From sequence record MN850616.1: DNA of 40,308 bases; one strand, 5' to 3'. A program made the translations under genes and the position numbers. Each line of letters begins with the position of its first letter. Position 1 is the stretch's first letter. This DNA comes from Escherichia phage buks. The notes under the pieces were generated by a model. It searched no databases and was not told the DNA's origin. It saw only the letters and a program-made list of their open reading frames with translations. Shown in pieces: positions 7,739 through 40,307 of this stretch.

Positions 7739-7767
7739 TTGCATAACCGTTAATAGTGTTCTATTAT
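7739..7767 (+). promoter_or_regulatory. Sigma70-like promoter TTGCAT-N17-TATTAT with overlapping palindromic operator-like site
   Basis: -35 at 7739-7744, -10 at 7762-7767; 16-bp site TAATAGTGTTCTATTA at 7751-7766; conserved CAACTAAACA 9 nt downstream of the -10. Confidence 0.55.
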
Positions 7768-7801: not shown

Positions 7802-7981
7802 ATGAGCGTTTTTATCGGTATTATCGCGTTTATCTATTTCATTCCGTTCCTGGTAGCCTTGCTACGTAATCATAAAGCCAAATTAGGAATATTCGTATGC
7901 AATCTTTTACTGGGGTGGATTCTTCTGCCGTGGGTAGGCGCTCTCATCTGGGCCTGTAACTCTAATGTTAATGGTAAATAA
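7802..7981 (+). CDS. Small membrane peptide, Imm-like superinfection immunity family (59 aa)
   Basis: Hand-translated ORF missing from the track (<60 aa): MSVFIGIIAFIYFIPFLVALLRNHKAKLGIFVCNLLLGWILLPWVGALIWACNSNVNGK. GAGGT RBS 8 nt upstream; two hydrophobic helices with the ...GW..L.W.GALIWA pattern I recall for superinfection-immunity peptides. First gene after promoter 7739-7767. Confidence 0.55.
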   Translation: MSVFIGIIAFIYFIPFLVALLRNHKAKLGIFVCNLLLGWILLPWVGALIWACNSNVNGK

Positions 7982-8043
7982 TCTGGCTAAATTAAACTTA
8001 CATTATTAGAATCAGATTTGTCTTAAACAATCAGGAAATAAGC

Positions 8044-28228: not shown

Positions 28229-28257
28229 ATAGTACTCTATTATATTTGGTTACGCAA
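28229..28257 (-). promoter_or_regulatory. Candidate minus-strand promoter TTGCGT-N17-TACTAT with overlapping operator-like site
   Basis: -35 is the reverse complement of 28252-28257, -10 of 28229-28234; palindromic site TAATAGTACTCTATTA at 28227-28242 supplies the -10; ~25-nt leader to gene 27897-28196. Confidence 0.45.
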
Positions 28258-28727
28258 GTGCCTTTTTATTCTTTTCTCTCGTCCCTCGTCAGGTAAGCGC
28301 TTGCCGTGAGGCAAGTGCGTTAATCCCTGAGAAGCAGACTAAGAATCTTTCGGCATACAAGAGAACAGTTACGTTTGCCGTTGTTCAGTGTTGTGCCTTT
28401 ATTCTTATTATCTGGTAACTAAAGGGCAGGCCTTAAGCCTGCCCACTAATCGTTACATTTTACGGTTGCGAATCTACGGCACATCAAGGAAATCAGATAC
28501 TTAAGAGATATGCTGCCGATGAGAATATAGCTCGCCCAAGGCAGTTCAGATACTAAGGAAGGAAGTTACTGAGTTTTAAGTTTGCGGGTTTCAGTAAGCC
28601 TTAACGCGTTTCCGCTTAGGGCGGAACCGCTAAGCTCTCACAAGGTGAAACAGAAACTTAAGTAACTTGAAGTTACAAGAGACAACTTACACGAAAAAAA
28701 CAAGAATGTCAATAGGTGTGTTTATAG

Positions 28728-28756
28728 TTGATTTCCCATTATGCCGTGGGTATACT
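28728..28756 (+). promoter_or_regulatory. Candidate promoter TTGATT-N17-TATACT for the plus-strand replication operon
   Basis: -35 at 28728-28733, -10 at 28751-28756, followed by GGAGG RBS and ATG 28788. Confidence 0.5.
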
Positions 28757-28787
28757 TGCTTTACTAACTGAGATGGAGGGTTTGATA

Positions 28788-28958
28788 ATGACACAGAATG
28801 AAGTAGCTAAGCTTATTGGGGTGACCCGCCGTACGCTGAATAACTGGCTAAGAGACGGCAAGTTCCCGGATTGTTGTGTCCGGATTATGGGCCGCCGGAT
28901 GCCAGGTACGTTTGACCGGGAGAAAGTGGAAGCGTGGATTAGGGAGAATGTAAAGTGA
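28788..28958 (+). CDS. Small helix-turn-helix DNA-binding protein
   Basis: Start set to ATG 28788-28790 with GGAGG RBS 8 nt upstream (MTQNEVAKLIGVTRRTLNNWLRDGKFP...), not the TTG at 28728; classic HTH segment. Confidence 0.55.
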   Translation: MTQNEVAKLIGVTRRTLNNWLRDGKFPDCCVRIMGRRMPGTFDREKVEAWIRENVK

Positions 28959-29188
28959 CCGATTTCCAGAAAAGAGTATTCAGGGCTGTAGCCGCTCTTA
29001 CATTTAAAAAGGGGTCTTGTAGTGTCCTTGACTTGCGCCGCACTTATTTTCAGTACTATAGTTCCTCTCTCATCGAGAACACGTTGAAGGTTCTGGTTAG
29101 AGACGGAGCAGTTAAAAGTAAGGCCGGAAAATATTCGGCAGTAGCTGAAGTTAAATGCTCTCAGGCGACGCCCGAAGACCTTGAATAA
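28955..29188 (+). CDS. Hypothetical protein
   Basis: 77 aa; GTG start overlapping upstream stop (GTGA) with AGGGAG RBS. Confidence 0.45.
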   Translation: MTDFQKRVFRAVAALTFKKGSCSVLDLRRTYFQYYSSSLIENTLKVLVRDGAVKSKAGKYSAVAEVKCSQATPEDLE

Positions 29189-29244
29189 AAGAAAAGCCCC
29201 AACGCGCGAACGTCAGGGCTTTAAACACTACAAAGGAAAAGCAC

Positions 29245-31431
29245 ATGTCAACAGGTAATCTAGCATACTCATGGTCGCGTAGCAATCGCCGTGAGGAACG
29301 CGCTGACATTAACGTTTACACCACGACTTCCGGCACCTGGGATGAGTTCGTTGAACTTATGCAGCCGCTTAAACGTTCGCGCCGGAACCCCAAGACAGAC
29401 CCCGGATATATCACCGCCGCGTGTACCGCCACGGTAAGCTCTACAGGTAAAGAAGCCGCCGAAGGTATGTTTTATCGCTGCAATGCGTCCGTAACGTCTT
29501 CGTCCCTGGCTTACGCCGACGTGGATAGTGCGACTCCGGAAGAGTTCGCCACTGATTGCGAGATGGTGCGTGAGTCGCGTTTCGCAATGATGCTCTACAC
29601 CACGGCATCCCACACCGAAGAAGCGCCACGCTATCGCATCGTTATGCCGGTGCGCACTCCGGTAACCGGCGGCGACATCATCCGCATCCGGTACGGTCTG
29701 CTGACGCATTTCCTTAAAGGCCGTGACGTAGATAGCGCGGGCTTCACCCTGTCGCAACCGATGTACCGCCCGCCAGTGGGAAGCCAGGTCATCGTGTCTG
29801 AAAGTAGCCGCATGATTACGGCAAGCAAGCTTATGGAGGGGGTGCCTGAAATTAACGTTACGGGTGCTTCCGATTATAAGGTGCCAGAGGGTGAGCAATC
29901 TGAGTTAACCGACCTGTTCGAAGAGTTCGCTTTCGAGTTCGGCGGCCGTATGACTGACCGTGGCCTGCAAATGCCGGCGACGCCAGAACATGCCGCCCAA
30001 TACTCGACGGGGGAACCGAAACAGGACGACTTCCTTTTCTGTTGGCCCCGCGATGGCTTCGAGCGCCCCAACGTAACCATGTACCATGACACCGACCTGG
30101 TGGCCACGGGTGGGATGACACCCGGCGGACGGGATATGTGGGTCTACGCTTGCACCGCTACCGGTTTGCCGTTTGACCGTGTAGAGGTAGCGCTTGGCTG
30201 GGCGCCCGGCGTTACTTGCGACGAAGAAGACCTGGCCGACGAAGAACCCCCGGCGCCGCAAGCGGATTTCATCGTCGAAGGATATATGCCGTCTAACTGC
30301 ATATGGGATATCGTCGGGGAATCCGGGACGTATAAATCGTTCTACACACTCGGCATGATGTATATCAGTGCTGCCGGGTACCGGTTCGCGGGGGCGGACA
30401 CCCGTAAAGCCCATCATTTCTATATTGATGGTGAGGGTGGGGAGTTCACGCACACCCGTATCGCTGCGTTGGCCGCTAAATACGGCGATGAAGGTATGCG
30501 GTATATGCATGTGCTTGACGCTGGTGAGTTTGCGGATACGAAGAAACTGGTTCGTAAAATGCGCCAGCTAGCGGGCAGTGAACCTGTCGGGATGGTTGCT
30601 TTCGATACGCTTAACCAGACCTTCGGAAACTGGATAGACAAGTTCAATGAGAACTCCGCGGGCCAGGACGGGATGGGGCGGGTAGTGGCGATGCTCAAAG
30701 AAGTACGCGACGGTACTAAAGGTGCTGTAGGTGTTGTCCACCACACCCCGAAAGGTGGGAGTAAGGCGCGCGGAAGTGGGGCGCTGTACGCCGGTGTCGA
30801 CGTCGAGCTTACGCTTGTCCGGGCGACCGAGAAACAAATAAACGTTGCACATACCAAGAACAAAAACGGTATGCAGCAGAAAACAATAGGCATGGTGCTT
30901 GAACCAGTACAGTTTCGCGAGGCCCCGCCGCCGAAAGAGTTCCAGGCTGTAGAATTCGTTGGGGGTGAGGGATACGGGGAAATCGTTAACCTAGACCTGC
31001 CGGAACCGCATAAAGCTCTTGTACTCATGCCGTGGGGCTTCCAACCGTTCGAAACGGACGAGGAAAAAGAGCGCAACGAAGGACTGGACGGTAAAGGTAA
31101 AGATTCCGTAAAGGATACAGTTAAACGGTCTAAAGATGCTTCCGCACGAGAATCGGTTATGTCTGCTCTCGAGGATTTACAGCAAGCCGATGATACCGGA
31201 CGAGGTTTCACACAACGGCAAATAGTCGCCAGGGCTGGGGACCACAGCATAACAAACTTGGTGCTCGAGAAGATGCTACGAGAGGGTGAATTGATGCTTG
31301 GTTGCGATGAGAATGGTGAAGTTGTAACGAATACTTACAGGTTGCCGACGGGTATAGATGACCGTAAGCGGCCAAAGAACAGGTATGAACCTAACGACAA
31401 CATAAAGACAACAGAAGGGGATTTAGAGTAA
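29245..31431 (+). CDS. Replication protein: primase-polymerase-like N-domain fused to RecA-like P-loop ATPase
   Basis: 728 aa; N-region with acidic motif AYADVDSATPEE; central Walker A-like GESGTYKSF and downstream ...VGVVHHTPKGG...; C-terminal winged-helix-like tail. Domain names are from recollection. Confidence 0.6.
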   Translation: MSTGNLAYSWSRSNRREERADINVYTTTSGTWDEFVELMQPLKRSRRNPKTDPGYITAACTATVSSTGKEAAEGMFYRCNASVTSSSLAYADVDSATPEEFATDCEMVRESRFAMMLYTTASHTEEAPRYRIVMPVRTPVTGGDIIRIRYGLLTHFLKGRDVDSAGFTLSQPMYRPPVGSQVIVSESSRMITASKLMEGVPEINVTGASDYKVPEGEQSELTDLFEEFAFEFGGRMTDRGLQMPATPEHAAQYSTGEPKQDDFLFCWPRDGFERPNVTMYHDTDLVATGGMTPGGRDMWVYACTATGLPFDRVEVALGWAPGVTCDEEDLADEEPPAPQADFIVEGYMPSNCIWDIVGESGTYKSFYTLGMMYISAAGYRFAGADTRKAHHFYIDGEGGEFTHTRIAALAAKYGDEGMRYMHVLDAGEFADTKKLVRKMRQLAGSEPVGMVAFDTLNQTFGNWIDKFNENSAGQDGMGRVVAMLKEVRDGTKGAVGVVHHTPKGGSKARGSGALYAGVDVELTLVRATEKQINVAHTKNKNGMQQKTIGMVLEPVQFREAPPPKEFQAVEFVGGEGYGEIVNLDLPEPHKALVLMPWGFQPFETDEEKERNEGLDGKGKDSVKDTVKRSKDASARESVMSALEDLQQADDTGRGFTQRQIVARAGDHSITNLVLEKMLREGELMLGCDENGEVVTNTYRLPTGIDDRKRPKNRYEPNDNIKTTEGDLE

Positions 31432-31454
31432 AAAGAAAGGGGCCATCAGGCCCC
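31431..31454 (-). terminator. Terminator hairpin between convergent primase-like and XRE genes
   Basis: Stem GGGGCC / GGCCCC (31439-31454) with ATCA loop; on the minus strand followed by UUUCUUUU; the XRE stop codon lies in the loop. Confidence 0.5.
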
Positions 31455-31664
31455 TGTATCACCAAAGCTTAACCATCGAGGGTCAACACCGAGAGCATCG
31501 GCAATGTGGAAGATTTTAAAACAGTCTACCTTACACACCCGACCGGTTGCCAGATGGGTAATAAGGCTTTGGGATACGCCAGCTTTGAAAGCAAGCTCAG
31601 TTTGACCCATGCCGATTTCTTTGCGGCGGCGCTCTATGCGGGCGCCTAATTCGGATTGCTGCAT
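31446..31664 (-). CDS. XRE-family (Cro-like) helix-turn-helix transcriptional regulator
   Basis: 72 aa; ...RRRKEIGMGQTELAFKAGVSQSLITHLATGR...IADALGVDPRWL... is a textbook Cro/CI-type HTH; AAGGAG RBS; transcribed divergently from the replication operon. Confidence 0.75.
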   Translation of the reverse strand: MQQSELGARIERRRKEIGMGQTELAFKAGVSQSLITHLATGRVCKVDCFKIFHIADALGVDPRWLSFGDTGA

Positions 31665-31693
31665 ATGTTTACTCCTTAGTTAGATATGTAGTA

Positions 31694-31722
31694 ATAGTAC
31701 AGTAATAAAATACACGGTGCAA
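31694..31722 (-). promoter_or_regulatory. Candidate promoter of the XRE/Cro-like gene, TTGCAC-N17-TACTAT, with overlapping degenerate operator
   Basis: -35 is the reverse complement of 31717-31722, -10 of 31694-31699; site TAATAGTACAGTAATA at 31692-31707 overlaps the -10. Confidence 0.5.
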
Positions 31723-31737
31723 TTTACGAAAAAGTGC

Positions 31738-31766
31738 TTGCATAAATAATAGAGTACGATTATAGT
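31738..31766 (+). promoter_or_regulatory. Sigma70-like promoter TTGCAT-N17-TATAGT with overlapping operator-like site
   Basis: -35 at 31738-31743, -10 at 31761-31766; site TAATAGAGTACGATTA at 31747-31762; CAACTAAACA 10 nt downstream of the -10, as at promoter 7739-7767. Confidence 0.55.
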
Positions 31767-31797: not shown

Positions 31798-32334
31798 ATG
31801 TTAGAACAATTTATTAAATTATTTGAACGTTTCGTAGTTGCTCACGAACTGATTGCTGCGAACAGCGCGAAACAGACTGTGTACCAACTTAAAAGTGATA
31901 TCACCGCAGTAAACAAAGAGTTGATAGAAAAAGCGGTAGAAATGGCAGCACCGGATGAGCGCCGGGCTAGTTCTGCGGTGTGCAAAGCGTTAGAAAAAGA
32001 ACTGCCGGTAGAAGGTGAAAGCATTGTTGACACTAAACCGGCGGAAGAAGAGAAACCAAAACGCAAGACTCGTAAAGCTAAAGTAGAGGAACCCGCACCG
32101 GAACCGGAAGAAGAGAAAGAAGAAATTGATTATAAGTCTCTTCGCGACCAGATTCAGGCTATTGATGATGCGATTAACGAAGGCCCCAGCGATGCCGCGT
32201 GCGATGATTCTGATGAACTGCTGGAAGAGTTTACCGGTAAGAAAATGAAGATTGCCGCGATTAAAGACGAAGACCTGGCCGAGTACCTGGAACGCCTCAC
32301 GGCAATCAAGAACAAGTATTTCGAAGAAGAATAA
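31798..32334 (+). CDS. Acidic hypothetical protein
   Basis: 178 aa, Glu/Lys-rich central region; first gene after promoter 31738-31766. Confidence 0.5.
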   Translation: MLEQFIKLFERFVVAHELIAANSAKQTVYQLKSDITAVNKELIEKAVEMAAPDERRASSAVCKALEKELPVEGESIVDTKPAEEEKPKRKTRKAKVEEPAPEPEEEKEEIDYKSLRDQIQAIDDAINEGPSDAACDDSDELLEEFTGKKMKIAAIKDEDLAEYLERLTAIKNKYFEEE

Positions 32335-32376: not shown

Positions 32377-33804
32377 ATGATTCTAAAAGAACGTGGCGGA
32401 AATAACGATGTGCACGCCCTACTGTCACCGTCAGGAGCTAAAAAGTGGCTGGCGTGCAGTGCATCACTGGCCTGTGAGAAAGATATCCCCAACACGTCCT
32501 GTAAAGCTGCGGTGTTAGGAACGGCGATGCACACACTTGCCGAGATTAATCTTAACCAGTACATCAAAGGCACTGCGTTGCCGTTAGAGCGAGATGTAGG
32601 GGCTTATGTGTTGGAAGAAGGTAAAGGCGCGGTTAAAGCGCTAATTAAGCCGATGAAAGGTGCGGTGCTGGTTACAGATGACATGGTAGAGCAGGTGCGA
32701 AAGTACACTGACTACTGCAAAGCGATTATAGACGTATCTACTTACGCCAAACTGGAAATGCGCGTAAATCTTACTGAGGTGTTGCACCCGGGTTATGAAG
32801 GCGTGGAGACGTTCGGAACCGCCGACTTTGTGGCCGTTCAGGAACTGGTGAACACCGAAGAGCATATGCTTATTATTGGTGACCTTAAAACAGGACGGCA
32901 TCGTGTCGAAGCGAAAGAAAACAAACAGCTTATGCTTTACGCTCTCGGTGTTTATCGCAGACTCAAGAGACGTTATAACATAACCGTTGTTCGTCTGGTC
33001 ATCTTCCAGCCATACGCTGGCGGTGCGTCGGAGTGGGACATCTCAGTCGAAGGCCTTGAACTGTTCGCTAAGTTTGCGCAGAAACGCGCGGTAGCTGCGC
33101 TTGACGCGTATCGACGTGGTAAGAAGAACCTGAAAGCGTCGGACTTTAAGCCGTCGGTTGATGGGTGCCAGTGGTGCCGGTTCTCAGAACAGTGCCAGGC
33201 AAGGACTAGAGCATCCAATGCCGTTCTGGTCAAAGAACTGGAGAACGATGCAGATGTATATCGGCGTGCCGTAGAACGGGTGGCTAAGTTCTGCAACGAG
33301 GCGGACTATATGAGCGTTTGGGAGGATGTTCAACCTAGCGATATCCTTAAGTTGCTGCCCGACGAGACAGATTTACCTAAGAAGCCAGTTAGAGAGGATG
33401 ACTTTGCGTTAGAACTTACCACTAAACAACTAGTGGCTGAGTATGAGAAGTTGCCGTTTTTGCGTCAGCACATCGACAAAGTAGAAAAAGCGATGGCGGC
33501 CGCGCTTCATTCCGGTAAAAAAGTTCCCGGTTACAAACTGGTTGAGGGCCGTCCTGGTAATCGCACGTGGAAAGATGAAGACGCTGTAAATAAATTCAGG
33601 GAAAACCATGTAAACGGCTATCTGCTGGATAAGACTGTTCCGGTATCACCGACCGAAGCGGAAAAGATCATCGGCAAGGAAGACCCCGAACTTTGGGCTG
33701 AGCTATCTAAACTCGTAACTCGTAAGCCGGGTGTGCCATGTGTTGCATCGGCGGATGACAGGCGACCTGATTGGAAAAATATTACGGAGGAGGATTTGGA
33801 ATGA
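32377..33804 (+). CDS. PD-(D/E)XK-type nuclease (DUF2800-like, Cas4/RecB-like exonuclease)
   Basis: 475 aa; N-terminus ...HALLSPSGAKKWLACSASLACE... as I recall for DUF2800-family phage nucleases; AGGAGG RBS. Confidence 0.65.
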   Translation: MILKERGGNNDVHALLSPSGAKKWLACSASLACEKDIPNTSCKAAVLGTAMHTLAEINLNQYIKGTALPLERDVGAYVLEEGKGAVKALIKPMKGAVLVTDDMVEQVRKYTDYCKAIIDVSTYAKLEMRVNLTEVLHPGYEGVETFGTADFVAVQELVNTEEHMLIIGDLKTGRHRVEAKENKQLMLYALGVYRRLKRRYNITVVRLVIFQPYAGGASEWDISVEGLELFAKFAQKRAVAALDAYRRGKKNLKASDFKPSVDGCQWCRFSEQCQARTRASNAVLVKELENDADVYRRAVERVAKFCNEADYMSVWEDVQPSDILKLLPDETDLPKKPVREDDFALELTTKQLVAEYEKLPFLRQHIDKVEKAMAAALHSGKKVPGYKLVEGRPGNRTWKDEDAVNKFRENHVNGYLLDKTVPVSPTEAEKIIGKEDPELWAELSKLVTRKPGVPCVASADDRRPDWKNITEEDLE

Positions 33805-33977
33805 AGAAATTGACGTGGTGGCTGCTTGCCACCCCGTTAATACCGGTGGCTTTTATATACTATTTAATGAGGGCGTTAGAGAAAGTCGGTGAGACGTCGG
33901 GAATTTTAGCGGACAGGATGCTTGACTCAAAAATGAGGATGAAATATTTAGCATGGCGTAATCGAAAATTTGGTTGA
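33801..33977 (+). CDS. Small membrane protein (58 aa)
   Basis: Start set to ATG 33801-33803 (MKKLTWWLLATPLIPVAFIYYLMRAL...) with GGAGGAGG RBS and ATGA overlap with the nuclease stop; the track start is TTG at 33771. Confidence 0.45.
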   Translation: MKKLTWWLLATPLIPVAFIYYLMRALEKVGETSGILADRMLDSKMRMKYLAWRNRKFG

Positions 33978-34002
33978 CAAGTTAATAGTACTCTATTATA
34001 GT
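33974..34002 (+). promoter_or_regulatory. Sigma70-like promoter TTGACA-N17-TATAGT with overlapping operator-like site
   Basis: Consensus -35 at 33974-33979, -10 at 33997-34002; site TAATAGTACTCTATTA at 33983-33998; followed by hairpin CCGGGCAGCTTCCCGG and the SSB-like gene. Confidence 0.6.
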
Positions 34003-34058
34003 ATTAATCACTGACCGGGCAGCTTCCCGGATAAACTCTAAAATGCGAGAAAACTAAA

Positions 34059-34685
34059 ATGGGAATCAAGCTTAATCTTCGTAAAGTACAAACTGCATGG
34101 CTGAACGTATTCGAACGCGCTAAAGACCGTGAAAATAATGACGGTTCCGTTACTAAAGGTACGTATAACGGTACTTTTATCCTGACTCCGGAACACCCAC
34201 AAATTGAAGAGCTTCGCGATACGGTATTCGCAGTAGTGTCGGAAGCATTGGGAGAGGCCGCCGCCGAGAAATGGATGAAGCAGAACTACGGCGAAGGTAA
34301 GCACATGGACAAGTGCGCCGTGCGCGACATCGCCGAACGTGATAACCCGTTCGAAGACTTTCCGGAAGGTTTTTACTTCCAGGCAAAGAACAAGCAACAG
34401 CCATTAATCCTGACTTCGGTTAAGGGCGAAAAGCAGGTAGAACCAGACTTCAACATCGACGGTGAACAGATTGAAGGCAAGCAGGTATATAGCGGTTGTG
34501 TGGCTAATATCTCAATCGAAATCTGGTTCTCCGAGCAATATAAAGTTTTAGGCGCAAAACTAAACGGCATTAAATTTGCTGGCGAAGGAAAGGCATTCGG
34601 TGGTTCTGCGGTTTCTGCCAGCGTCGACGACCTGGAAGATGATGAAGACGAAACACCGCGTCGCGAACGCCGCCGTAACCGTTAA
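34059..34685 (+). CDS. ssDNA-binding-like protein (DUF2815-like)
   Basis: 208 aa; acidic C-terminal tail (DDLEDDEDETP) typical of SSB-type proteins; position between nuclease and polymerase; family name from recollection. Confidence 0.6.
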   Translation: MGIKLNLRKVQTAWLNVFERAKDRENNDGSVTKGTYNGTFILTPEHPQIEELRDTVFAVVSEALGEAAAEKWMKQNYGEGKHMDKCAVRDIAERDNPFEDFPEGFYFQAKNKQQPLILTSVKGEKQVEPDFNIDGEQIEGKQVYSGCVANISIEIWFSEQYKVLGAKLNGIKFAGEGKAFGGSAVSASVDDLEDDEDETPRRERRRNR

Positions 34686-34742
34686 TATCTTCTCATTTCA
34701 TTTAAGGCGGCTTCGGTCGCCTTTTCTATAAGGGTCAAATAA

Positions 34743-36944
34743 ATGAATCTGCTTTATCTCGATACTGAAACATTCTCAGAAGCCGATTTGAAAAAAGTCG
34801 GTTCCTATGCCTATGCCGAACATCCGACTACCGAAATTGTTATCTGCACCTACGCTTTCGATGAAGGCCCTGTGCAAGTATGGGACGCCACCGACGGCAG
34901 CGATATGCCGCGTGATTTGCGTCGGGCGATGCTAAAGCTGCAAAAACCAGACAGCAATCTCAAACTGGTAGGCCAAAACTTCCTTATGTTCGACCGACCA
35001 GTTATTAAGCATTGCTGGGGATTCGAACTCCTGGTAGAAAACATTATAGACACTATGATAGTCGCGTTCCGACATGCCCTCCCGGGTTCACTGGCCGCGC
35101 TGTGTGAGGTTTTAAACATTGACGCAAGCATGGCTAAGGATAAACGCGGTAAGGCGCTGATACAGCGATTCAGTAAGCCTACGCCCAAGAACTATAAGAT
35201 TCGACGTTATACTGCCGATACCCACCCAAAAGAGTGGGCAGAATTTATTGCATACGCAAAAAGCGACATTACGTCCATGCGTGAAGTGTATAAGAAAATG
35301 CCTAAGTGGGGGAATTCTGAGTTCGAAGACCGCGTGCTGCACTTAGACCAGGTGATTAATGACCGAGGATTTAAGGTTGATGTGGCATTGGCGGAAGCAG
35401 CGATTGAAGCAGTCACGCGCCATAAAGAAGAGTTACAGGAAGAAGCCCAACGTAAATATGGCGGTTCACTAACCGGCAAAGACTTCTTGCCTATTTTACA
35501 GGAACTAGCACCGGCACACCGCATCCACAACGCACAGAAGTCGACGCTTAACGACTTGCTGGCAGATGAGGATTTACCGGACGATGCGCGCACTATTATC
35601 GAGATGCGTCTCGGGGCTGCTTCCACCGCATCGACGAAATACGCGCCGTTGCTGTTAGGTCGTTCTTCCGATGACCGCCGTCGAGGTTGTCTGCAATACG
35701 GCGGAGCGAAGCGAACACTGCGATGGGCCGGGAAAGGTTTTCAGCCTCAGAACCTGGCGCGCGGATATTATCACGACGATGAACTTGATAAGGGTATTTC
35801 CGCATTACTTAAAGGCCGTGCACACCGCCGTTTTGATGTGGCCAAGCTAACGGCATCCACTGTCCGCAGCTGTATAATCCCGGAAGACGGGTGTAAGTTT
35901 GTTGTTGCGGACTATTCCAACGTTGAAGGGCGAGGGCTTGCCTTCCTGTCCGGGGAAGAAACAGCTCTTGATACTTTCCGCGCGGGTCTTGATATATACT
36001 GCGTAACGGCAGGAAAGATGTTCGGCATGGATCCAGATGATATTAAGAAAAACTTTAAGGATATCAGACAGATAGGAAAAGCTTGCGAGCTTGGCCTCGG
36101 CTATGAGGGTGGCGTCGGAGCGTTCGTTACATTCGCCAAAAACTTAGGTCTTGACCTTATTGAGATGGCCAAAACAATGGCCGGAACTTTCCCCGACCAT
36201 ATCTGGGCCGCTACCGCTCGCGGGTATGAGTGGGCGCGTATACAGGAGGCAAAACGGCCGCCGCGTCCGGGGGAGAAGGATGACCGTCCATCGTATATTC
36301 TCGATAAGAAAGTATGGCGTACATGTGATGCTATTAAACGTATGTGGCGTGAATCGCACCCGCAAACCGTAGCTTTCTGGTGCGACCTTAAAGACGGTAT
36401 TCTTGCCGCAGTACGTAATCCTGGCCGCGATTTCTGGGCGGGCGCAAATATCCGAAGCAACGGTGAAAGAGCTATCCGTATCTGGAGAACAGTAGAAACT
36501 GATTCATCCGGTAGAAACATCCCAGGATGGTGGCTATGCATGGAGCTGCCGTCGGGGCGAATCCTATCATATCCAGGAATAGGCGTCAGCGTGACAAAGG
36601 AAACCGACGAAGACGGGCGGGTAAACACCAATGTAAGAATTAAGTACCAGGGCGAGAACCAGTTAACACGGCAGTGGACTACCCTGTACACACACGGCGG
36701 AAAGGCTTGTGAGAACATCGTTCAGGCGTTTTGTCGTGACTTATTGGCCTACGCAATGCTTAATGTTGAGGCTGGCGGGTACCCTATAGTTCTTTCGGTT
36801 CATGATGAACTGGTATGCGAGACCCCGGATACGCCAGATTACACGGTGGCGGAACTGGAAAAACTGATGTGTGCATTGCCAGAATGGGCTGAGGGTTTCC
36901 CTCTTGTAGCGGAAGGTGCGGAGTTAAAACGCTATGCTAAGTAA
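34743..36944 (+). CDS. DNA polymerase I (family A) with 3-prime-5-prime exonuclease domain
   Basis: 733 aa; exo motif LYLDTETFSE; polymerase motifs ADYSNVEGRGLAFLSGE (motif A), RQIGKACELGLGYEGG (motif B), SVHDELV (motif C). Confidence 0.9.
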   Translation: MNLLYLDTETFSEADLKKVGSYAYAEHPTTEIVICTYAFDEGPVQVWDATDGSDMPRDLRRAMLKLQKPDSNLKLVGQNFLMFDRPVIKHCWGFELLVENIIDTMIVAFRHALPGSLAALCEVLNIDASMAKDKRGKALIQRFSKPTPKNYKIRRYTADTHPKEWAEFIAYAKSDITSMREVYKKMPKWGNSEFEDRVLHLDQVINDRGFKVDVALAEAAIEAVTRHKEELQEEAQRKYGGSLTGKDFLPILQELAPAHRIHNAQKSTLNDLLADEDLPDDARTIIEMRLGAASTASTKYAPLLLGRSSDDRRRGCLQYGGAKRTLRWAGKGFQPQNLARGYYHDDELDKGISALLKGRAHRRFDVAKLTASTVRSCIIPEDGCKFVVADYSNVEGRGLAFLSGEETALDTFRAGLDIYCVTAGKMFGMDPDDIKKNFKDIRQIGKACELGLGYEGGVGAFVTFAKNLGLDLIEMAKTMAGTFPDHIWAATARGYEWARIQEAKRPPRPGEKDDRPSYILDKKVWRTCDAIKRMWRESHPQTVAFWCDLKDGILAAVRNPGRDFWAGANIRSNGERAIRIWRTVETDSSGRNIPGWWLCMELPSGRILSYPGIGVSVTKETDEDGRVNTNVRIKYQGENQLTRQWTTLYTHGGKACENIVQAFCRDLLAYAMLNVEAGGYPIVLSVHDELVCETPDTPDYTVAELEKLMCALPEWAEGFPLVAEGAELKRYAK

Positions 36945-37146
36945 ACTGATTATCGCGGTACTGGCAGGATTCGCAGCAGGTGTATACTGCCACCAGGGGC
37001 AATACGGCATGATGGTTGCCGTATTAGTGATGTTCGTTGCAATTTATCTGTGGGTGATGGGGTGAAAATTTACTGGTTCTATGAAGAAGACTGTCGAATC
37101 TGTCCGCGCTGCGGCATTAAGCACACGAAACGAGAGGGGTGCATAG

Positions 37147-37341
37147 ATGAGTAATAAACCATTTAGTAAGAAACTAGCCGCGTTAGTAGATATGCCGGAG
37201 TGGGAGTTTATTACGGTAATGGGTGACGGTTTCTTTAGTGATGCTTGCGCGGGGTGTACGCATAAAGGCGATTACTACTCCGAACACGATATCTATCAAG
37301 CGTACTTCCTGCGTAACCCAGATGCGGAGCCTTTGCTGTGA
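37147..37341 (+). CDS. Hypothetical protein (64 aa)
   Basis: ATG 37147 with GAGAGGGG RBS; Cys/His cluster CAGCTHKGDYY. Confidence 0.45.
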   Translation: MSNKPFSKKLAALVDMPEWEFITVMGDGFFSDACAGCTHKGDYYSEHDIYQAYFLRNPDAEPLL

Positions 37342-37622
37342 CTCCAGAAGGAAAGATTCAGAAATATGCAAAAGAGCGATTCGAGGCCGTTGGTGGCCTC
37401 GTTCGGAAACTGTCTTATGAAGGGCGCTCCGGCGCTCCTGACCTGCTGGTAATTCTCCCCGGCGGCATCATCTGGTTCGTCGAGGTGAAGAAAGACGAAA
37501 ACACGAAGCCTGACCCGCACCAGTTACGGGAGCATGAGCGGATGTGCAAACGCGGGGCAAATGTTTTTGTTGTCGGGTCTAAGAAACAGGTTGATAAATT
37601 AATAGAACACTATTATATTTAG
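37338..37622 (+). CDS. VRR-NUC domain nuclease
   Basis: 94 aa; GTG start overlapping upstream stop; ...GAPDLLVILPGGIIWFVEVKKDENTKPDPHQLREHERMCKRGANVFVV... matches the VRR-NUC pattern (D...E.K core). Confidence 0.7.
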   Translation: MTPEGKIQKYAKERFEAVGGLVRKLSYEGRSGAPDLLVILPGGIIWFVEVKKDENTKPDPHQLREHERMCKRGANVFVVGSKKQVDKLIEHYYI

Positions 37623-37653: not shown

Positions 37654-37845
37654 ATGAAATACGAATATGACCGCAAACCAGCACGTGACATCGTACCGGG
37701 TGACATGATTTTCAATGTTAAGACGCGTAGGCCTGTTGCCGTAGATACAGTATTTGTTGAGTCTAACGGTAAACTGGTTATTGAAGATGCAACCGGTAAC
37801 GTCACGGCGTTCGGGCGGAAGGAATTGGTTCTGGTGGCGAAATGA
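37654..37845 (+). CDS. Hypothetical protein (63 aa)
   Basis: ATG 37654 with AAGGAA RBS; stop overlaps helicase start (ATGA). Confidence 0.45.
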   Translation: MKYEYDRKPARDIVPGDMIFNVKTRRPVAVDTVFVESNGKLVIEDATGNVTAFGRKELVLVAK

Positions 37846-40307
37846 GTAAATTCACTAGAAGGCCTTATCAAAAGCTCATGACCTCGTTCATGCTGCGACA
37901 CCCGCGCTGTAATATCTGGGCAAGTATGGGAAGCGGCAAGTGCCTGAAACGCGGGACTGAAGTTATTATGTTTGACGGTACGACCAAGAAAGTAGAAGAC
38001 GTCATCGTCGGTGACGTGCTTATGGGGCCAGATTCAACGCCTAGAAATGTACTGTCTCTCGGTAGAGGCCGGGAGATGATGTACGAGGTTAAACCGCGAA
38101 AAGGCGAGTCATATACGGTAAACGAAAGCCATATATTATCACTGCGAACTACTACAGGTATCGCAAAAGGTTCATGGCCAGATAACACCGTTTTCGACAT
38201 AAGCGTCCGCGACTGGCTTAAGTTGCCGAAATATGTAACCGGGCCTAATGGGTATCTTAAGGGTTGGCGGGTACCTGTCGATTTTCCAAGGAAAGAGCAG
38301 GACGAGGCTTTATTGCCTCCGTACCTTATGGGGCTATGGCTGGGCGACGGTACTTCGTCGTCTGGGGCCATAACATCAGGAGAGAACGAAAAGGAAATAA
38401 GGGCGTATCTTGAGTCGTACGCAGCACGTAATGGGATGCAAATACGAAAAGAAGGACTTACATGGAGTATATCTCACGGCAACACAGGTCATAAGAAGCA
38501 CGGGTTTACACACGCGCTGAAATCGGCGGGTGTCCTGAACAATAAGCATATACCGCACAATTACAAATGCGGCGACCGGAGACAGCGTTTAGAGTTGCTG
38601 GCAGGGCTTCTGGATAGTGATGGTTACTGCGATTTGTCTAAAGCAGGTTTTGACTGGATTTCGGTAAGCGAGCGACTCGCTGATGATTTTTGCTATCTAT
38701 GCCGTTCTCTTGGTTTCGCAGCTTACAAGAAGAAAACTCGTAAGCGTTGCGCAAACACTGATGTTTGGGGGGATTACTTCCGCGTATCGGTATCAGGCGA
38801 TTTTTCTGATGTACCTTTCGTGCGTGGCCGCCACCAGAATTTACCGAAGCGTAATATTAATAAAAACGTACTTAACGTTGGAATAGAATCTATAACCCCG
38901 GTCGGCGTAGATGATTATTACGGCTTCACTATCGACGGTGACCACCGGTTTCTATTAGGCGACTTCACCGTAACGCACAACACAAGCTCGACAATGTGGG
39001 TGCTTAACCGGTTATTCCGTAATGGTCAGCTTAATGATGACGACCGGGTATTAATCCTCGCCCCGTTGCGTGTTGCGTCGGGTACGTGGCCCGCGGAACA
39101 AACTAAGTGGGGGTTCCCTTGCCTTCGTGTCATCGATGCAACCGGTTCGGAGAAGCGCCGCATAGCGGCGCTGGAGTCGGACGCTAATGTGGTGTGCACT
39201 AACTACGAAGTTATCGAGTGGCTGATTGATTACTACGGCAAAGACGACTGGCCTTTTACTGTTATCGTGGCCGATGAGAGCACGAAACTGAAATCTTTCC
39301 GTAGCCGTTCCGGCGGCAGCAAGAGAGCGAAGGCGCTTAGTAAAGTGGCGTTCGGCAAGGTTAAGCGTTTCATTAACCTGACCGGTACACCATCACCAAA
39401 CGGCCTCAAAGACTTGTGGGGTCAGAACTGGTTCATCGACGCGGGTGAACGCCTTGGGTCTTCATACACGGCCTTTACCGATAGATGGTTTAACTCGGTA
39501 CAGAAAGGCAAATCTGCGATGGCGCGGGAGTACCATGCTCGCCCAGGCGCGGATAACGAGATTCACCAGAAGATGAAGGATATCAGCCTTACCATTGATG
39601 CCGCCGAGTGGTTCGGTTGTGAAGCACCGGTTATTGTACCGGTTGAGATTGACCTGCCGAAGAAAGCGCGTCAAGCCTACATCGATATGGAGGAGAAGTT
39701 ATTCGCGGAACTGGAGAGCGGAGAAGTTGAAGCGGCTAACGCCGCCGCTAAAACGGCTAAGTGCTTGCAGATTGCTTCCGGTGCCGTGTATGTGTCGGGG
39801 CCGGATGGTGAAGCAACGAAAGACTGGGAGAAAGTGCACGACGCGAAACTCGATGCGTTAGAGTCCATTGTCGAGGAGTTGCAGGGTGCGCCGCTGCTGG
39901 TGGCCTATCAGTTCAAGCACGAACTTGAGCGCATTCTTAGGCGATTCCCCCAGGCGCAGGCGTTTGCGAAAGGTGCTAAGGGTAATAAGCAGATGGAATC
40001 TTGGAACCGCGGGGAAATCGAGATTTTGTGCGTGCACCCTGCATCGGCGGGCCATGGTTTGAATTTACAGGACGGCGGGCATCATCTGGCGTTTATTTCG
40101 CAAGGCTGGAACCTGGAGCACTATTTGCAGGTTGTCGAGCGTATAGGTCCTGTACGCCAGAAACAGGCTGGCCACGAGCGTCCAGTGTTCCTGTATCACA
40201 TAGTCGCTAAAGACACGCTGGATGAGGTCGTTGCCGCGCGTACGGACGAGAAAAAATCTGTCCAGGAAGAGTTGCTTAATTATATGAAGAGACGAGGTAA
40301 GAAATGA
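37842..40307 (+). CDS. SF2 (SNF2/DEAD-like) helicase interrupted by an in-frame intein; extein ~474 aa
   Basis: Continuous 821-aa ORF; Walker A GSGK is split from its Thr by a 347-aa insert; after the insert: TSSTMW...LILAPLRVASGTW...VIVADESTKLK...NLTGTPSPN... Confidence 0.85.
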   Translation: MSKFTRRPYQKLMTSFMLRHPRCNIWASMGSGKCLKRGTEVIMFDGTTKKVEDVIVGDVLMGPDSTPRNVLSLGRGREMMYEVKPRKGESYTVNESHILSLRTTTGIAKGSWPDNTVFDISVRDWLKLPKYVTGPNGYLKGWRVPVDFPRKEQDEALLPPYLMGLWLGDGTSSSGAITSGENEKEIRAYLESYAARNGMQIRKEGLTWSISHGNTGHKKHGFTHALKSAGVLNNKHIPHNYKCGDRRQRLELLAGLLDSDGYCDLSKAGFDWISVSERLADDFCYLCRSLGFAAYKKKTRKRCANTDVWGDYFRVSVSGDFSDVPFVRGRHQNLPKRNINKNVLNVGIESITPVGVDDYYGFTIDGDHRFLLGDFTVTHNTSSTMWVLNRLFRNGQLNDDDRVLILAPLRVASGTWPAEQTKWGFPCLRVIDATGSEKRRIAALESDANVVCTNYEVIEWLIDYYGKDDWPFTVIVADESTKLKSFRSRSGGSKRAKALSKVAFGKVKRFINLTGTPSPNGLKDLWGQNWFIDAGERLGSSYTAFTDRWFNSVQKGKSAMAREYHARPGADNEIHQKMKDISLTIDAAEWFGCEAPVIVPVEIDLPKKARQAYIDMEEKLFAELESGEVEAANAAAKTAKCLQIASGAVYVSGPDGEATKDWEKVHDAKLDALESIVEELQGAPLLVAYQFKHELERILRRFPQAQAFAKGAKGNKQMESWNRGEIEILCVHPASAGHGLNLQDGGHHLAFISQGWNLEHYLQVVERIGPVRQKQAGHERPVFLYHIVAKDTLDEVVAARTDEKKSVQEELLNYMKRRGKK
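37941..38981 (+). mobile_element. Intein with LAGLIDADG homing endonuclease domain, inserted in the helicase P-loop
   Basis: Starts with Cys codon TGC 37941-37943 right after GSGK; ends ...FTVTHN (Asn codon 38979-38981) followed by Thr; internal LAGLIDADG-like motifs LMGLWLGDGTSS and LLAGLLDSDGYC; 1041 nt, in frame. Confidence 0.8.

What the first reader, a model, noticed from the sequence alone, without database searches (positions are those of the whole stretch)
32377..37622. Replication/recombination module: PD-(D/E)XK nuclease, SSB-like protein, family A polymerase and VRR-NUC nuclease
The gene order DUF2800-like nuclease, DUF2815-like SSB, PolA, VRR-NUC, SF2 helicase is a recurring phage replication cassette as I recall it. 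The SSB/PolA part is driven from its own operator-bearing promoter (33974-34002), and the polymerase is intact with no intein or frameshift.
Basis: established knowledge. Interest (0 to 1): 0.25.

Follow-up and report, generated by a model that had tools for sequence, protein, structure and literature searches.

The report
Known Jersey-phage DNA replication gene cassette
This is the ordinary, already sequenced and annotated DNA replication and recombination gene block of Salmonella phage blauehaus; the only addition is that its internal promoter carries a repressor-type DNA site that recurs at other promoters across the phage genome.

Summary
The window is Salmonella phage blauehaus (Jerseyvirus, MT074473), 100% identical, reverse-complemented and circularly permuted.

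- a DUF2800 PD-(D/E)XK nuclease
- a gp2.5/Enc34-type (DUF2815) single-strand-binding protein (SSB)
- an intact, intein-free family A polymerase
- a VRR-NUC nuclease about 90% identical to a solved Holliday-junction resolvase structure (PDB 4QBN, phage SETP3)
- just outside the coordinates, an SNF2 helicase

The same gene order occurs in Chi-like phages, and the nuclease-SSB-polymerase core occurs in Staphylococcus and Streptococcus phages. The literature already describes this as the 'duf2800-gp2.5-polA module'. So the cassette is already known.

The promoter at 33974-34002 is real by sequence (11 of 12 consensus positions). It is conserved across two genera and is annotated in the SETP3 RefSeq record.

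Its 'operator' is a 14-16 bp dyad, (T)AATAG-N4-CTATT(A). The dyad recurs at 6-7 promoter-like sites in the window and at 8-12 sites (one mismatch allowed) in each of eight Guernseyvirinae genome sequences examined, against about 1 expected. A Dhillonvirus that has the same cassette has none.

The most likely binder is the adjacent 72-aa protein related to phage 434 Cro. That is inferred, not shown.

Minor extras are a shared C-terminal '...EDLE' tail on three replication proteins and an intein in the helicase.

The parts
32377..33804 (+). DUF2800 PD-(D/E)XK nuclease of the Cas4/AddB-like type, 475 aa. Features: GTxD 147-150, DLK 169-171, QxxxY 184-188, Cys27 plus C264-X2-C267-X5-C273, and a C-terminal tail ...NITEEDLE.
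   Evidence: Pfam PF10926 E 4.6e-67 and PDDEXK_1 E 2.5e-9. phrog_69 E 9e-118. Invariant residues in a 6-phage alignment. Motif positions.
33801..33977 (+). Small hydrophobic ORF of 58 aa as annotated (blauehaus_55). It belongs to a variable, mosaic segment that ends exactly at the -35 hexamer of the next promoter.
   Evidence: phrog_13603 E 1e-42. GenBank CDS. Many relatives align only from window position 33973/33974 onward.
33974..34002 (+). Sigma-70-type promoter TTGACA-17-TATAGT for the SSB, polymerase and VRR-NUC genes.
   Evidence: 11 of 12 consensus positions, the best match in the region. Conserved in Jerseyvirus and Kagunavirus. The homologous site is annotated 'promoter' in SETP3 RefSeq.
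33983..33998 (.). Dyad operator TAATAG-TACT-CTATTA. It fills the promoter spacer and overlaps the first two bases of the -10 hexamer.
34015..34030 (+). Conserved 5-bp G+C hairpin CCGGG-CAGCTT-CCCGG in the predicted 5' leader of the SSB mRNA. Function unknown.
   Evidence: Conserved between Jerseyvirus and Kagunavirus. The fold is not exceptional (z-score -0.5).
34059..34685 (+). T7 gp2.5 / Enc34 ORF6-type ssDNA-binding and annealing protein, 208 aa. Its tail is ...VDDLEDDEDETPRRERRRNR.
   Evidence: PF10991 E 3.6e-13. phrog_112 E 1.6e-40. Weak match to PDB 4JG2. Tail comparison. GenBank mislabels it 'putative DNA polymerase'.
34743..36944 (+). Family A DNA polymerase with a 3'-5' exonuclease domain, 733 aa, intein-free. 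Motif positions: Exo I 6-12, Exo II 78-84, Exo III 171-175, A 389-397, B 442-457, C 685-691.
36934..37065 (+). 43-aa hydrophobic ORF that overlaps the end of the polymerase gene.
   Evidence: phrog_10404 E 2.9e-28. GenBank CDS.
37147..37341 (+). 64-aa ORF. It sits where SETP3 and Sciku carry an HNH endonuclease gene.
   Evidence: phrog_25645 E 7.8e-38..
37338..37622 (+). VRR-NUC nuclease (Holliday-junction resolvase type), 94 aa, GTG start. Active-site residues PD at 34-35 and E-V-K at 49-51.
   Evidence: PDB 4QBN E 2.5e-53 and 4QBO E 6e-8. PMC4103454. phrog_93 and phrog_5702. Pfam is below its cut-off.
37591..37619 (+). Second internal promoter, TTGATA-17-TATATT, with the dyad TAATAGAACACTATTA (37600-37615). 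It is embedded in the last codons of the VRR-NUC gene and points at the 63-aa ORF and the helicase.
   Evidence: 10 of 12 consensus positions.. Conserved in 8 genomes.
37842..40307 (+). SNF2-family (SF2) helicase, 821 aa. A 347-aa Hint plus LAGLIDADG intein (residues 34-380, nt 37941-38981) is inserted in Walker A at GSGK|T.
   Evidence: Hom_end_hint E 9e-23, SNF2-rel_dom E 6.4e-9, LAGLIDADG_3 E 7e-7. phrog_62 E 2e-201.. The same protein is annotated 'intein-containing DNA helicase' in Sciku.
31446..31664 (-). 72-aa 434-Cro-like HTH_3 protein, the candidate repressor for the dyad operators.
   Evidence: HTH_31 and HTH_3 above their Pfam cut-offs. PDB 434 Cro E 1.5e-8. 47.6% identical to Sf6 Cro.
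31692..31762 (.). Divergent control region with two dyads. 31692-31707 overlaps the -10 of the leftward Cro promoter (TTGCAC-17-TACTAT, my reading, 8 of 12). 31747-31762 overlaps the rightward promoter (TTGCAT-17-TATAGT, 8 of 12), which leads to the 178-aa ORF and the nuclease.
29245..31431 (+). Replicative primase-helicase, 728 aa (AAA_25 / RepA-like ATPase at residues 332-505). Its tail is ...KTTEGDLE. It lies upstream of the finding but belongs to the same module.
   Evidence: PF13481 E 2e-19. phrog_3228 E 0..

Best explanation
This is the replication and recombination module of a virulent Jersey-type siphophage. It works like the phage T7 class II gene set.

Proposed roles, by homology:
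- The upstream primase-helicase unwinds and primes.
- The family A polymerase, with its proofreading exonuclease, copies the DNA.
- The gp2.5-type SSB coats single strands and anneals them.
- The Cas4-like DUF2800 nuclease resects ends, so that together with the SSB it supports recombination-dependent replication and concatemer formation.
- The dimeric VRR-NUC resolvase cuts branched DNA before headful packaging.
- The SNF2 helicase remodels or migrates branches.

Transcription is by host sigma-70 RNA polymerase. One promoter lies upstream of the 178-aa ORF and the nuclease. Two internal promoters lie at 33974 (SSB, polymerase, VRR-NUC) and 37591 (helicase). Each of these promoters carries the 14-bp dyad AATAG-N4-CTATT across its spacer and -10 region. 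A dimer of the neighbouring 434-Cro-like 72-aa protein most likely binds there and turns the promoters down as it accumulates, its own promoter included.

Shown here: gene identities, intact catalytic motifs, synteny, promoter and dyad conservation, and dyad enrichment.

Inferred: all biochemical roles in this particular phage, promoter activity, and the identity of the operator-binding protein.
For: - Identity: 100% match to MT074473.
- Family assignments.
- Catalytic motifs are intact.
- The VRR-NUC protein is about 90% identical to the saNUC structure 4QBN, a dimer that cleaves four-way junctions.
- The Enc34 DUF2815 protein is a proven SSB with the T7 gp2.5 fold.
- The module is described in the literature.
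- Synteny holds in Chivirus, Triavirus and a streptococcal prophage-type phage. Polymerase homologues occur in 1422 phage records.
- Promoter quality and conservation. SETP3 annotates the promoter.
- Dyad enrichment: 8 strand matches against 0.37 expected; 9 against 1.66 expected; 8-12 sites per genome in eight Guernseyvirinae sequences against about 1 expected. It is the commonest perfect 5-N-5 dyad in all 7 genomes tested.
- The half-sites are invariant while the central N4 and the flanks vary.
- The dyad sits at three different offsets from the -35 hexamer (3, 6 and 9 nt). It is therefore an element separate from the promoter.
- Cro72 resembles 434 Cro and Sf6 Cro, whose operators have the same 5+4+5 geometry.
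- Dhillonvirus has the cassette but neither HTH protein and no dyad.
- A distant Guernseyvirinae phage has a Cro homologue, no HTH_17, and a different dyad in the same promoter position.
Against: - There are no transcript, footprint or binding data for any Jersey-type phage in the searchable literature.
- Only two of the operator-bearing promoters reach 10 of 12 consensus positions or better. The others are 8-9 of 12 and partly my own reading.
- The second HTH protein (HTH_17, 56 aa) co-occurs with the dyad just as well in Jerseyvirus and Kagunavirus, and it is more conserved (78-100% against 46-51% for Cro72).
- In the distant phage sp9 the SSB promoter keeps only the right half-site.
- saNUC was a weak, poorly selective enzyme in vitro.
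- The SSB tail ends in an Arg-rich stretch, not the acidic/hydrophobic tip of T7 gp2.5.
- Pfam covers only about 100 aa of the polymerase, and VRR-NUC is below Pfam's cut-off.
Confidence: 0.85

Rival explanations
1. The dyad is a real regulatory site, but another protein reads it rather than the Cro-like protein. The candidate is the 56-aa HTH_17 (excisionase/MerR-like) protein at 28788-28958. It would act as repressor or activator of the same promoter set.
For: HTH_17 is present in every genome that has the AATAG dyad and absent from the Dhillonvirus that lacks it. It is restricted to Guernseyvirinae (442 records). It is far more conserved between Jerseyvirus and Kagunavirus than Cro72, which matches the near-identical half-sites.
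Against: HTH_17/excisionase-type proteins usually bind as monomers to direct repeats (established knowledge, not tested here). The dyad's 5+4+5 geometry matches 434-type Cro operators. Two dyads flank the Cro gene's own promoter region, while no dyad lies directly upstream of the HTH_17 gene. Phage sp9 keeps a dyad-in-promoter layout and a Cro homologue but has no HTH_17.
Confidence: 0.15
2. The repeated motif is not an operator. It is part of a phage-specific promoter, recognised by a modified or phage-directed RNA polymerase. This is how PHIRE output was read for phage fBC-Eco01 ('phage RNA polymerase promoters', consensus tgAATAGTa-ccTATTat-T).
For: The same motif was reported seven times in fBC-Eco01 and labelled a phage promoter (PMC9825357). 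The right half-site CTATTA overlaps -10-like sequence at every site.
Against: No RNA polymerase or sigma factor gene turned up among the ORFs I profiled in the window or in the annotated relatives I fetched. The left half-site lies in the spacer, where sigma-70 reads no sequence. The motif is an exact dyad. Its offset from the -35 hexamer varies (3, 6 or 9 nt, and over the -35 itself at 25241), which is not expected of a fixed promoter element.
Confidence: 0.07
3. The nuclease, SSB and VRR-NUC genes are mainly a recombination, repair or anti-defence set and are not part of the replisome. The polymerase would act only in gap filling, with the host replisome copying the genome.
For: Gp2.5-family proteins are classed as single-strand annealing recombinases. 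A DUF2800 nuclease of phage Bas14 is what a type IX retron senses, which shows that it acts on DNA ends in vivo. Sciku annotates a sliding-clamp-like gene.
Against: The module also encodes its own primase-helicase and a proofreading polymerase, and there is no separate SSB. That is the T7-type self-sufficient layout. The two roles are not exclusive.
Confidence: 0.1

Closest known systems
Replication module of Jerseyvirus SETP3 (NC_009232) and other Guernseyvirinae
   Same: Same genes in the same order at 90-99% protein identity. The promoter is annotated at the homologous site. The VRR-NUC structure 4QBN comes from SETP3. The helicase carries the same intein.
   Different: SETP3 has a 299-aa intein in polymerase motif B and an HNH endonuclease gene between the polymerase and VRR-NUC genes. 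Blauehaus has neither.
'duf2800-gp2.5-polA module' (PMC8093625) and the Enc34/Chi-type replication module (PMC5686142)
   Same: Nuclease, gp2.5-like SSB and family A polymerase lie adjacent with no separate ssb gene. Chivirus BP12C continues with VRR-NUC and helicase in the same order.
   Different: Only 26-31% polymerase identity. Those SSBs end in an acidic/hydrophobic tip (DWEDEV, DDEDFL), not an Arg-rich end. They have no AATAG dyad regulon.
Phage T7 class II genes (gp2.5 SSB, gp3 endonuclease I, gp4 primase-helicase, gp5 polymerase, gp6 exonuclease)
   Same: The same five activities in one block. The SSB has the gp2.5 fold family. Acidic C-terminal tails are shared between the SSB and other replisome parts. 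The T7 tail biology is stated from established knowledge.
   Different: The nuclease, resolvase and helicase belong to unrelated families. Transcription is by host RNA polymerase, not a phage polymerase.
Phage 434 / Sf6 Cro and their 14-bp operators ACAAR-N4-RTTGT
   Same: Cro72 aligns over its full length with 434 Cro (E 1.5e-8) and is 47.6% identical to Sf6 Cro. The dyad has the same 5+4+5 layout and overlaps promoters.
   Different: The half-site sequence differs (AATAG). No cI repressor partner was found. The sites are single and scattered over at least 6 promoters of a virulent phage, rather than tripartite OR/OL sites. Binding is untested.

Membership tests
DUF2800 / PD-(D/E)XK nuclease (Cas4/AddB-like) | Profile match above the curated cut-off | tested here: met
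   PF10926 scores 227 bits against a cut-off of 21, over the full profile 1-368. PDDEXK_1 scores 37.9 against 22.
DUF2800 / PD-(D/E)XK nuclease (Cas4/AddB-like) | Catalytic D...(D/E)xK plus QxxxY, and the four-Cys cluster C...CX2CX5C | tested here: met
   D150, D169-L-K171 and Q184...Y188 are invariant in 6 phages. C27, C264, C267 and C273 are present. Streptococcus phage Javan497 lacks the CX2CX5C cysteines.
DUF2800 / PD-(D/E)XK nuclease (Cas4/AddB-like) | Nuclease activity on DNA ends | not testable with these tools
   The only indirect support is that a Bas14 DUF2800 protein triggers retron IX.
Enc34_ssDNA-bd (DUF2815) / T7 gp2.5-type SSB | Profile match above the curated cut-off | tested here: met
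   PF10991 scores 50 bits against a cut-off of 26, profile positions 2-173 of 176. phrog_112 E 1.6e-40.
Enc34_ssDNA-bd (DUF2815) / T7 gp2.5-type SSB | Acidic, unstructured C-terminal tail that forms the protein's end | tested here: inconclusive
   An acidic stretch VDDLEDDEDE is present, but it is followed by PRRERRRNR. The Chi-like, Staphylococcus and Streptococcus homologues end in an acidic/hydrophobic tip.
Enc34_ssDNA-bd (DUF2815) / T7 gp2.5-type SSB | OB fold and ssDNA binding | not tested
   No structure prediction was run. The only PDB sequence match is weak (4JG2, E 0.009).
Family A DNA polymerase | Profile match above the cut-off and motifs A, B and C | tested here: met
   PF00476 scores 66.6 bits against 34.3 but covers only residues 371-473. 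The motifs are ADYSNVEGR, RQIGKACELGLGYEGG and SVHDELV. Taq aligns at motif A and motif C, and Klenow and other PolI large fragments extend across motif B.
Family A DNA polymerase | 3'-5' exonuclease motifs Exo I, II and III (proofreading type) | tested here: met
   DTE at 7-9, NxxxFD at 79-84 and YxxxD at 171-175. RNase_H_2 is a weak match (20.4 bits against 22).
Family A DNA polymerase | Uninterrupted reading frame (no intein or frameshift) | tested here: met
   A single 733-aa ORF. It aligns collinearly with SETP3 apart from that phage's 299-aa intein. About 125 extra residues lie between motifs B and C relative to Taq, with no Hint match.
VRR-NUC | Pfam profile above the cut-off | tested here: not met
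   17.8 bits against a cut-off of 23.8, E 0.0035.
VRR-NUC | Close homology to a structurally defined VRR-NUC protein, with the PD...ExK site | tested here: met
   4QBN E 2.5e-53 over residues 2-93. 4QBO E 6e-8. PD at 34-35 and EVK at 49-51. PMC4103454 defines these proteins as VRR-Nuc dimers.
SNF2 (SF2) helicase with intein | SNF2 N-terminal domain and helicase C-terminal domain | tested here: met
   SNF2-rel_dom scores 35.8 bits against 24.9. Helicase_C is below its cut-off (19.3 against 23.5). phrog_62 E 2e-201.
SNF2 (SF2) helicase with intein | Hint domain with Cys1 and a terminal HN followed by a nucleophile, plus a homing endonuclease | tested here: met
   Hom_end_hint E 9e-23. LAGLIDADG_3 scores 29.8 bits against 22.5. 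The junctions read GSGK|CLKRG...VTHN|T.
434-Cro-type repressor with operator | Cro/CI-type HTH protein | tested here: met
   HTH_31 scores 31.3 bits against 27 and HTH_3 scores 30.4 against 23. 434 Cro E 1.5e-8.
434-Cro-type repressor with operator | Dyad-symmetric operators overlapping promoters, including the protein's own | tested here: met
434-Cro-type repressor with operator | Specific binding of the protein to those sites, and repression | not testable with these tools
   No binding data were found.

The most novel reading that the evidence does not exclude
A strictly virulent phage subfamily (Guernseyvirinae) keeps a 434-Cro-type protein. Through single AATAG-N4-CTATT operators it would control most of the phage's host-polymerase promoters, including the two inside this replication cassette and its own. 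That would give copy-number-buffered or timed shut-off of the replication genes.

The conserved promoter-operator units would also serve as the break-points where gene modules are swapped between phages.

Separately, three replisome parts (primase-helicase, DUF2800 nuclease and a 77-aa protein) may be held together by a shared C-terminal '...T-E-E/G-D-L-E' docking tail that mimics the SSB tail.
Probability: 0.45. Interest if true: 0.35.

Novelty: already known. Interest (0 to 1): 0.15.

Why it matters
The cassette itself adds little. It is a textbook-type phage replication module in a deposited, annotated genome. One of its proteins has a crystallised ortholog and another belongs to a family with solved structures.

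It is still of some practical use:
- It corrects the deposited annotation, which calls the SSB a 'putative DNA polymerase'.
- It shows that blauehaus carries the intein-free polymerase allele.
- It gives a concrete, cheap experiment: Cro72 tested on a 16-bp site.

That experiment would define the transcription programme of Jersey-type phages, which are widely used for Salmonella biocontrol. It would also supply a small orthogonal repressor/operator pair.

Tried and rejected
- E. coli complete genomes: no match to the region, so it is not a resident E. coli prophage.
- Rfam at a permissive threshold over 28-40.3 kb, and tRNA search over the whole window: nothing.
- The hairpin after the SSB promoter as a terminator or a stable RNA element: no T-run, and the folding z-score is only -0.5. 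I kept it only as a conserved feature of unknown role.
- PDB sequence search for the DUF2800 protein: no meaningful match.
- NCBIfam: nothing for the nuclease, SSB or VRR-NUC, and only partial polymerase hits far below the cut-offs.
- Literature on Jersey-type promoters or operators and on phage MB78: nothing usable beyond the PHIRE note in PMC9825357.
- Using Cro recognition-helix conservation to choose between Cro72 and HTH_17: ambiguous. SQSLITH (Jerseyvirus) against SQGAINQ (Kagunavirus) with nearly the same half-site.
- Operators in Serratia phage Otaku and in PSDA-2: only 3-kb pieces were read and no clear dyad was found.
- The idea that the extra ~125 aa in the polymerase is an intein: rejected. 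There is no Hint match, and the sequence is collinear with intein-free relatives.
- I ran no structure predictions or large protein-database searches, because the family assignments were already decisive.


Full report
**What the window is**

The 5.2-kb region is 100% identical to Salmonella phage blauehaus (MT074473 / NC_073173; Jerseyvirus, Guernseyvirinae; host S. Enteritidis). A further 449 phage records match it, 243 of them over at least 80% of its length. They are almost all Salmonella or Escherichia Guernseyvirinae. No complete E. coli genome contains it.

The window is the reverse complement of the record, circularly permuted. The record's arbitrary ends meet at window 28485|28486.

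**Checking the observation**

| Coordinates | Call | Main evidence (unless noted) |
|---|---|---|
| 32377-33804 | DUF2800 nuclease | PF10926 E 4.6e-67; PDDEXK_1 E 2.5e-9; phrog_69 'exonuclease' E 9e-118 |
| 34059-34685 | gp2.5/Enc34-type SSB | PF10991 (formerly DUF2815) E 3.6e-13; phrog_112 E 1.6e-40 |
| 34743-36944 | family A polymerase | PF00476 66.6 bits (cut-off 34.3), residues 371-473 only; phrog_17 full length, E 1.8e-134 |
| 37338-37622 | VRR-NUC | Pfam below cut-off (17.8 vs 23.8 bits); phrog_93 E 6e-33; PDB 4QBN E 2.5e-53 |
| 37842-40307 | SNF2 helicase | SNF2-rel_dom E 6.4e-9; phrog_62 E 2e-201 |

*Nuclease.* A six-phage alignment shows the invariant PD-(D/E)XK set: GTxD 147-150, D169-L-K171 and Q184xxxY188. 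It also shows the Cas4/AddB-type cysteines, C27 plus C264-X2-C267-X5-C273.

*SSB.* GenBank labels this gene 'putative DNA polymerase'.

*Polymerase.* Taq aligns at motif A and motif C, and Klenow and other PolI large fragments extend the match across motif B. Exo I-III and motifs A, B and C are all intact.

*VRR-NUC.* 4QBN is the VRR-Nuc protein of Salmonella Enteritidis typing phage 3. It was shown to be a dimer with the fold of a Holliday-junction resolvase and weak four-way-junction cleavage (PMC4103454). The PD...EVK site is present here.

*Helicase.* It is interrupted by a 347-aa Hint/LAGLIDADG intein in Walker A.

**'Intact with no intein or frameshift'**

This remark is correct, and it is more informative than it looks. 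In tblastn, several congeners (SETP3, UPWr_S2, GRNsp6 and others) match the polymerase over about 3.1 kb in two pieces. SETP3's 1032-aa protein differs from blauehaus's by one clean 299-aa insertion, C...HN|C, between GKA and CELGLGY of motif B. Blauehaus therefore carries the empty allele.

Relative to Taq, the phage enzyme has about 125 extra residues between motifs B and C. These show no Hint signal and are collinear in the relatives, so they are a family feature and not a mobile element.

**'A recurring cassette'**

This is confirmed.
- Chivirus BP12C has exonuclease, Gp2.5-like SSB, polymerase, endonuclease and helicase in the same order.
- Staphylococcus phage LH1 has exonuclease, SSB and polymerase.
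- Streptococcus phage Javan497 has the same three genes, unannotated, confirmed by alignment.
- Polymerase homologues occur in 1422 phage records across Proteobacteria, Firmicutes, Bacteroidetes and Actinobacteria hosts.

The literature names the 'duf2800-gp2.5-polA module' and notes that it lacks a separate ssb gene (PMC8093625). It lists the Enc34 replication module as primase, transcription factor, polymerase, VRR-NUC and helicase, and solves the DUF2815 protein as a T7 gp2.5-type SSB (PMC5686142). A DUF2800 nuclease of phage Bas14 was recently shown to trigger a type IX retron.

The cassette is therefore already known.

**The promoter and its 'operator'**

33974-34002 reads TTGACA-17-TATAGT. 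At 11 of 12 consensus positions it is the best sigma-70-like site between 28.5 and 40.3 kb. Promoter-like sites as a class are not enriched there (16 found against 11.6 expected). The homologous site is annotated 'promoter' in SETP3 RefSeq.

The spacer holds the dyad TAATAG-TACT-CTATTA (33983-33998).

Enrichment of the dyad:
- The 16-mer matches 8 times over both strands at up to 3 mismatches, against 0.37 expected; 0 of 100 shuffles reach that number.
- TAATAG-N4-CTATTA at up to 2 mismatches gives 9 sites against 1.66 expected.

The clear sites, with their promoter context:

| Site | Context |
|---|---|
| 7751 | upstream of a superinfection-immunity gene |
| 28227 | upstream of the leftward small-gene cluster |
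| 31692 and 31747 | either side of the divergent region between the Cro-like gene and the 178-aa ORF/nuclease operon |
| 33983 | SSB promoter |
| 37600 | promoter TTGATA-17-TATATT, inside the last codons of the VRR-NUC gene |
| 25241 | weaker site, lying over a -35 hexamer |

Each site overlaps the spacer, the -10 or the -35 of a promoter-like sequence. Only the promoters at 33974 and 37591 are strong by the scan. The others are 8-9 of 12, and some are my own reading.

**Comparative evidence**

In eight Guernseyvirinae genome sequences, AATAG-N4-CTATT with at most one mismatch occurs 8-12 times per genome against about 1 expected, at homologous positions. These are blauehaus, SETP3, Kenya-K3, GE_vB_M5, Sciku, BCH953P1, LF7074P1 and BEU33. 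It is the commonest perfect 5-N-5 dyad in all seven genomes tested for that.

Across Jerseyvirus and Kagunavirus (about 75% DNA identity), the -35 hexamer, both half-sites and the -10 of the SSB and helicase promoters are kept. The central four bases and all upstream sequence differ.

The dyad's offset from the -35 hexamer is 3, 6 or 9 nt at different promoters. It is therefore a separate element and not part of the promoter.

A Dhillonvirus that shares the cassette (polymerase 65% identical) has no such site. It also has no homologue of either small HTH protein.

One paper noticed the motif with PHIRE in fBC-Eco01 and labelled it a 'phage RNA polymerase promoter' (PMC9825357). No RNA polymerase gene turned up among the ORFs I profiled or in the annotated relatives I fetched. 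I found no operator interpretation anywhere.

**Who binds the dyad?**

The 72-aa protein at 31446-31664 is a Cro/CI-type HTH. Its best match in the PDB is 434 Cro (E 1.5e-8, full length). It is 47.6% identical to Sf6 Cro, whose annotated operators ACAAR-N4-RTTGT have the same 5+4+5 geometry. Two dyads flank its own promoter region.

The alternative is the 56-aa HTH_17 protein at 28788-28958, which co-occurs equally well and is more conserved.

A distant Guernseyvirinae phage, vB_St_LL_sp9, tips the balance modestly toward Cro. It has a Cro homologue (42.6% identical), no HTH_17 and no AATAG sites. It does have a different dyad, TATTA(C/G)-N4-(C/G)TAATA, in the same place in TTGACA-17-TAATAT-type promoters: 3 perfect sites and 8 at up to one mismatch. 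Its SSB promoter, however, keeps only the Jersey-type right half-site.

I put Cro72 as the binder at roughly 0.6-0.7 and HTH_17 at about 0.15.

**How the module most likely works (inferred from the families)**

It is a T7-like self-sufficient replisome.
- The primase-helicase (29245-31431; AAA_25; phrog_3228) unwinds and primes.
- The proofreading family A polymerase copies the DNA.
- The gp2.5-type SSB coats single strands.
- The SSB together with the Cas4-like nuclease provides strand annealing and end resection, for recombination-dependent replication and concatemer formation.
- The VRR-NUC dimer resolves branches before headful packaging.
- The SNF2 helicase remodels branches.

Expression comes from host-type promoters, which a small dimeric repressor turns down as it accumulates.

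**Other observations**

- Shared tail. Of 475 six-frame stop-to-stop segments of at least 40 aa, only three end in 'DLE'. They are the primase-helicase (...TTEGDLE), the nuclease (...ITEEDLE) and the 77-aa protein at 28955-29188 (...TPEDLE). The tails are conserved in Kagunavirus even where the primase-helicase body is only 31% identical. The SSB has VDDLEDDEDE followed by an Arg-rich end. In Chi-like, Staphylococcus and Streptococcus phages the nuclease tail likewise resembles that phage's own SSB tail. This recalls the shared acidic tails of T7 gp2.5 and gp4 (established knowledge). It suggests a common docking partner, which is untested.
- Mosaic boundary. Homology of many relatives to blauehaus begins exactly at the first base of the -35 hexamer, 33974. 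The promoter-operator unit therefore marks a mosaic boundary.

**Verdict**

The cassette is already known and ordinary.

The operator remark was correct, and it extends to a subfamily-wide set of promoter-associated dyads. That set is uncharacterised experimentally, but it is of a familiar kind.

Noticed in passing
window 37941-38981 (within the helicase gene 37842-40307): The SNF2 helicase next to the finding carries a 347-aa Hint plus LAGLIDADG intein inserted in Walker A (GSGK|C...HN|T). The same intein is annotated in SETP3 and Sciku.
   Followed up: partly
L011 (SETP3) 28400-31498; window 36066-36113: SETP3 and several other Jerseyviruses carry a 299-aa intein in polymerase motif B at GKA|CELGLGY. 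Blauehaus has the empty site with the +1 Cys retained.
   Followed up: yes
window 31431, 33804 and 29188 (C-termini); 34620-34685 (SSB tail): Three replication-module proteins end in ...(E/G/P)(E/G)DLE. They are the only 3 of 475 six-frame segments that do so. The SSB has an internal DDLEDDEDE followed by an Arg-rich end, PRRERRRNR. The tails are conserved in Kagunavirus. In Chi-like, Staphylococcus and Streptococcus phages the nuclease tail resembles that phage's SSB tail.
   Followed up: partly
window 33973/33974: Many relatives lose homology exactly upstream of the -35 hexamer of the SSB promoter. The small membrane ORF 33801-33977 is a swapped mosaic segment, and the promoter-operator unit marks the boundary.
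   Followed up: partly
window 37591-37619: A 10-of-12 promoter with a perfect dyad is encoded within the last ten codons of the VRR-NUC gene (VDKLIEHYYI*). That stretch is therefore under both coding and regulatory constraint.
   Followed up: partly
window 34059-34685; 28955-29188; 31798-32334: The GenBank product names look wrong or uninformative. The SSB is called 'putative DNA polymerase'. The 77-aa protein is called 'putative UvsX-like' but has no Pfam hit and only phrog_5169 of unknown function. The 178-aa ORF is called '13.88 kDa late protein', a name carried over in the record from a phage MA12 annotation.
   Followed up: partly
window 28243-28787: A 545-bp stretch without credible ORFs lies upstream of the HTH_17, p77 and primase-helicase genes. 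It holds a 14-nt repeat (TCAGATACTTAAGA and two imperfect copies) and inverted copies of ACTTAAG. It is a possible replication origin or packaging region. The record's arbitrary ends fall inside it.
   Followed up: no
window 34015-34030: A G+C hairpin, CCGGGCAGCTTCCCGG, lies at the start of the predicted SSB mRNA leader. It is conserved in Jerseyvirus and Kagunavirus. It is not a terminator, and its folding energy is unexceptional.
   Followed up: partly
window 37147-37341: A 64-aa ORF sits where SETP3 and Sciku have an HNH homing-endonuclease gene, between the polymerase and VRR-NUC genes. This is a second site of mobile-element gain or loss in the cassette.
   Followed up: no
window 7751-7766 with 7802-9198: The same dyad-bearing promoter layout precedes a superinfection-immunity gene (PF14373) and a 384-aa DNA-repair-exonuclease-like phosphoesterase (phrog_704). 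These genes lie on the opposite strand from the neighbouring tail genes.
   Followed up: partly
L018 (vB_St_LL_sp9) 3810, 16674, 39288: A distant Guernseyvirinae phage has a different promoter-embedded dyad, TATTA(C/G)-N4-(C/G)TAATA. It has a 42.6%-identical Cro homologue and no HTH_17 homologue.
   Followed up: partly
L002 (Sciku) 3357-3878: The Kagunavirus Sciku annotates a sliding-clamp-like gene preceded by one of the dyad sites (3904). I did not check whether blauehaus has a counterpart.
   Followed up: no
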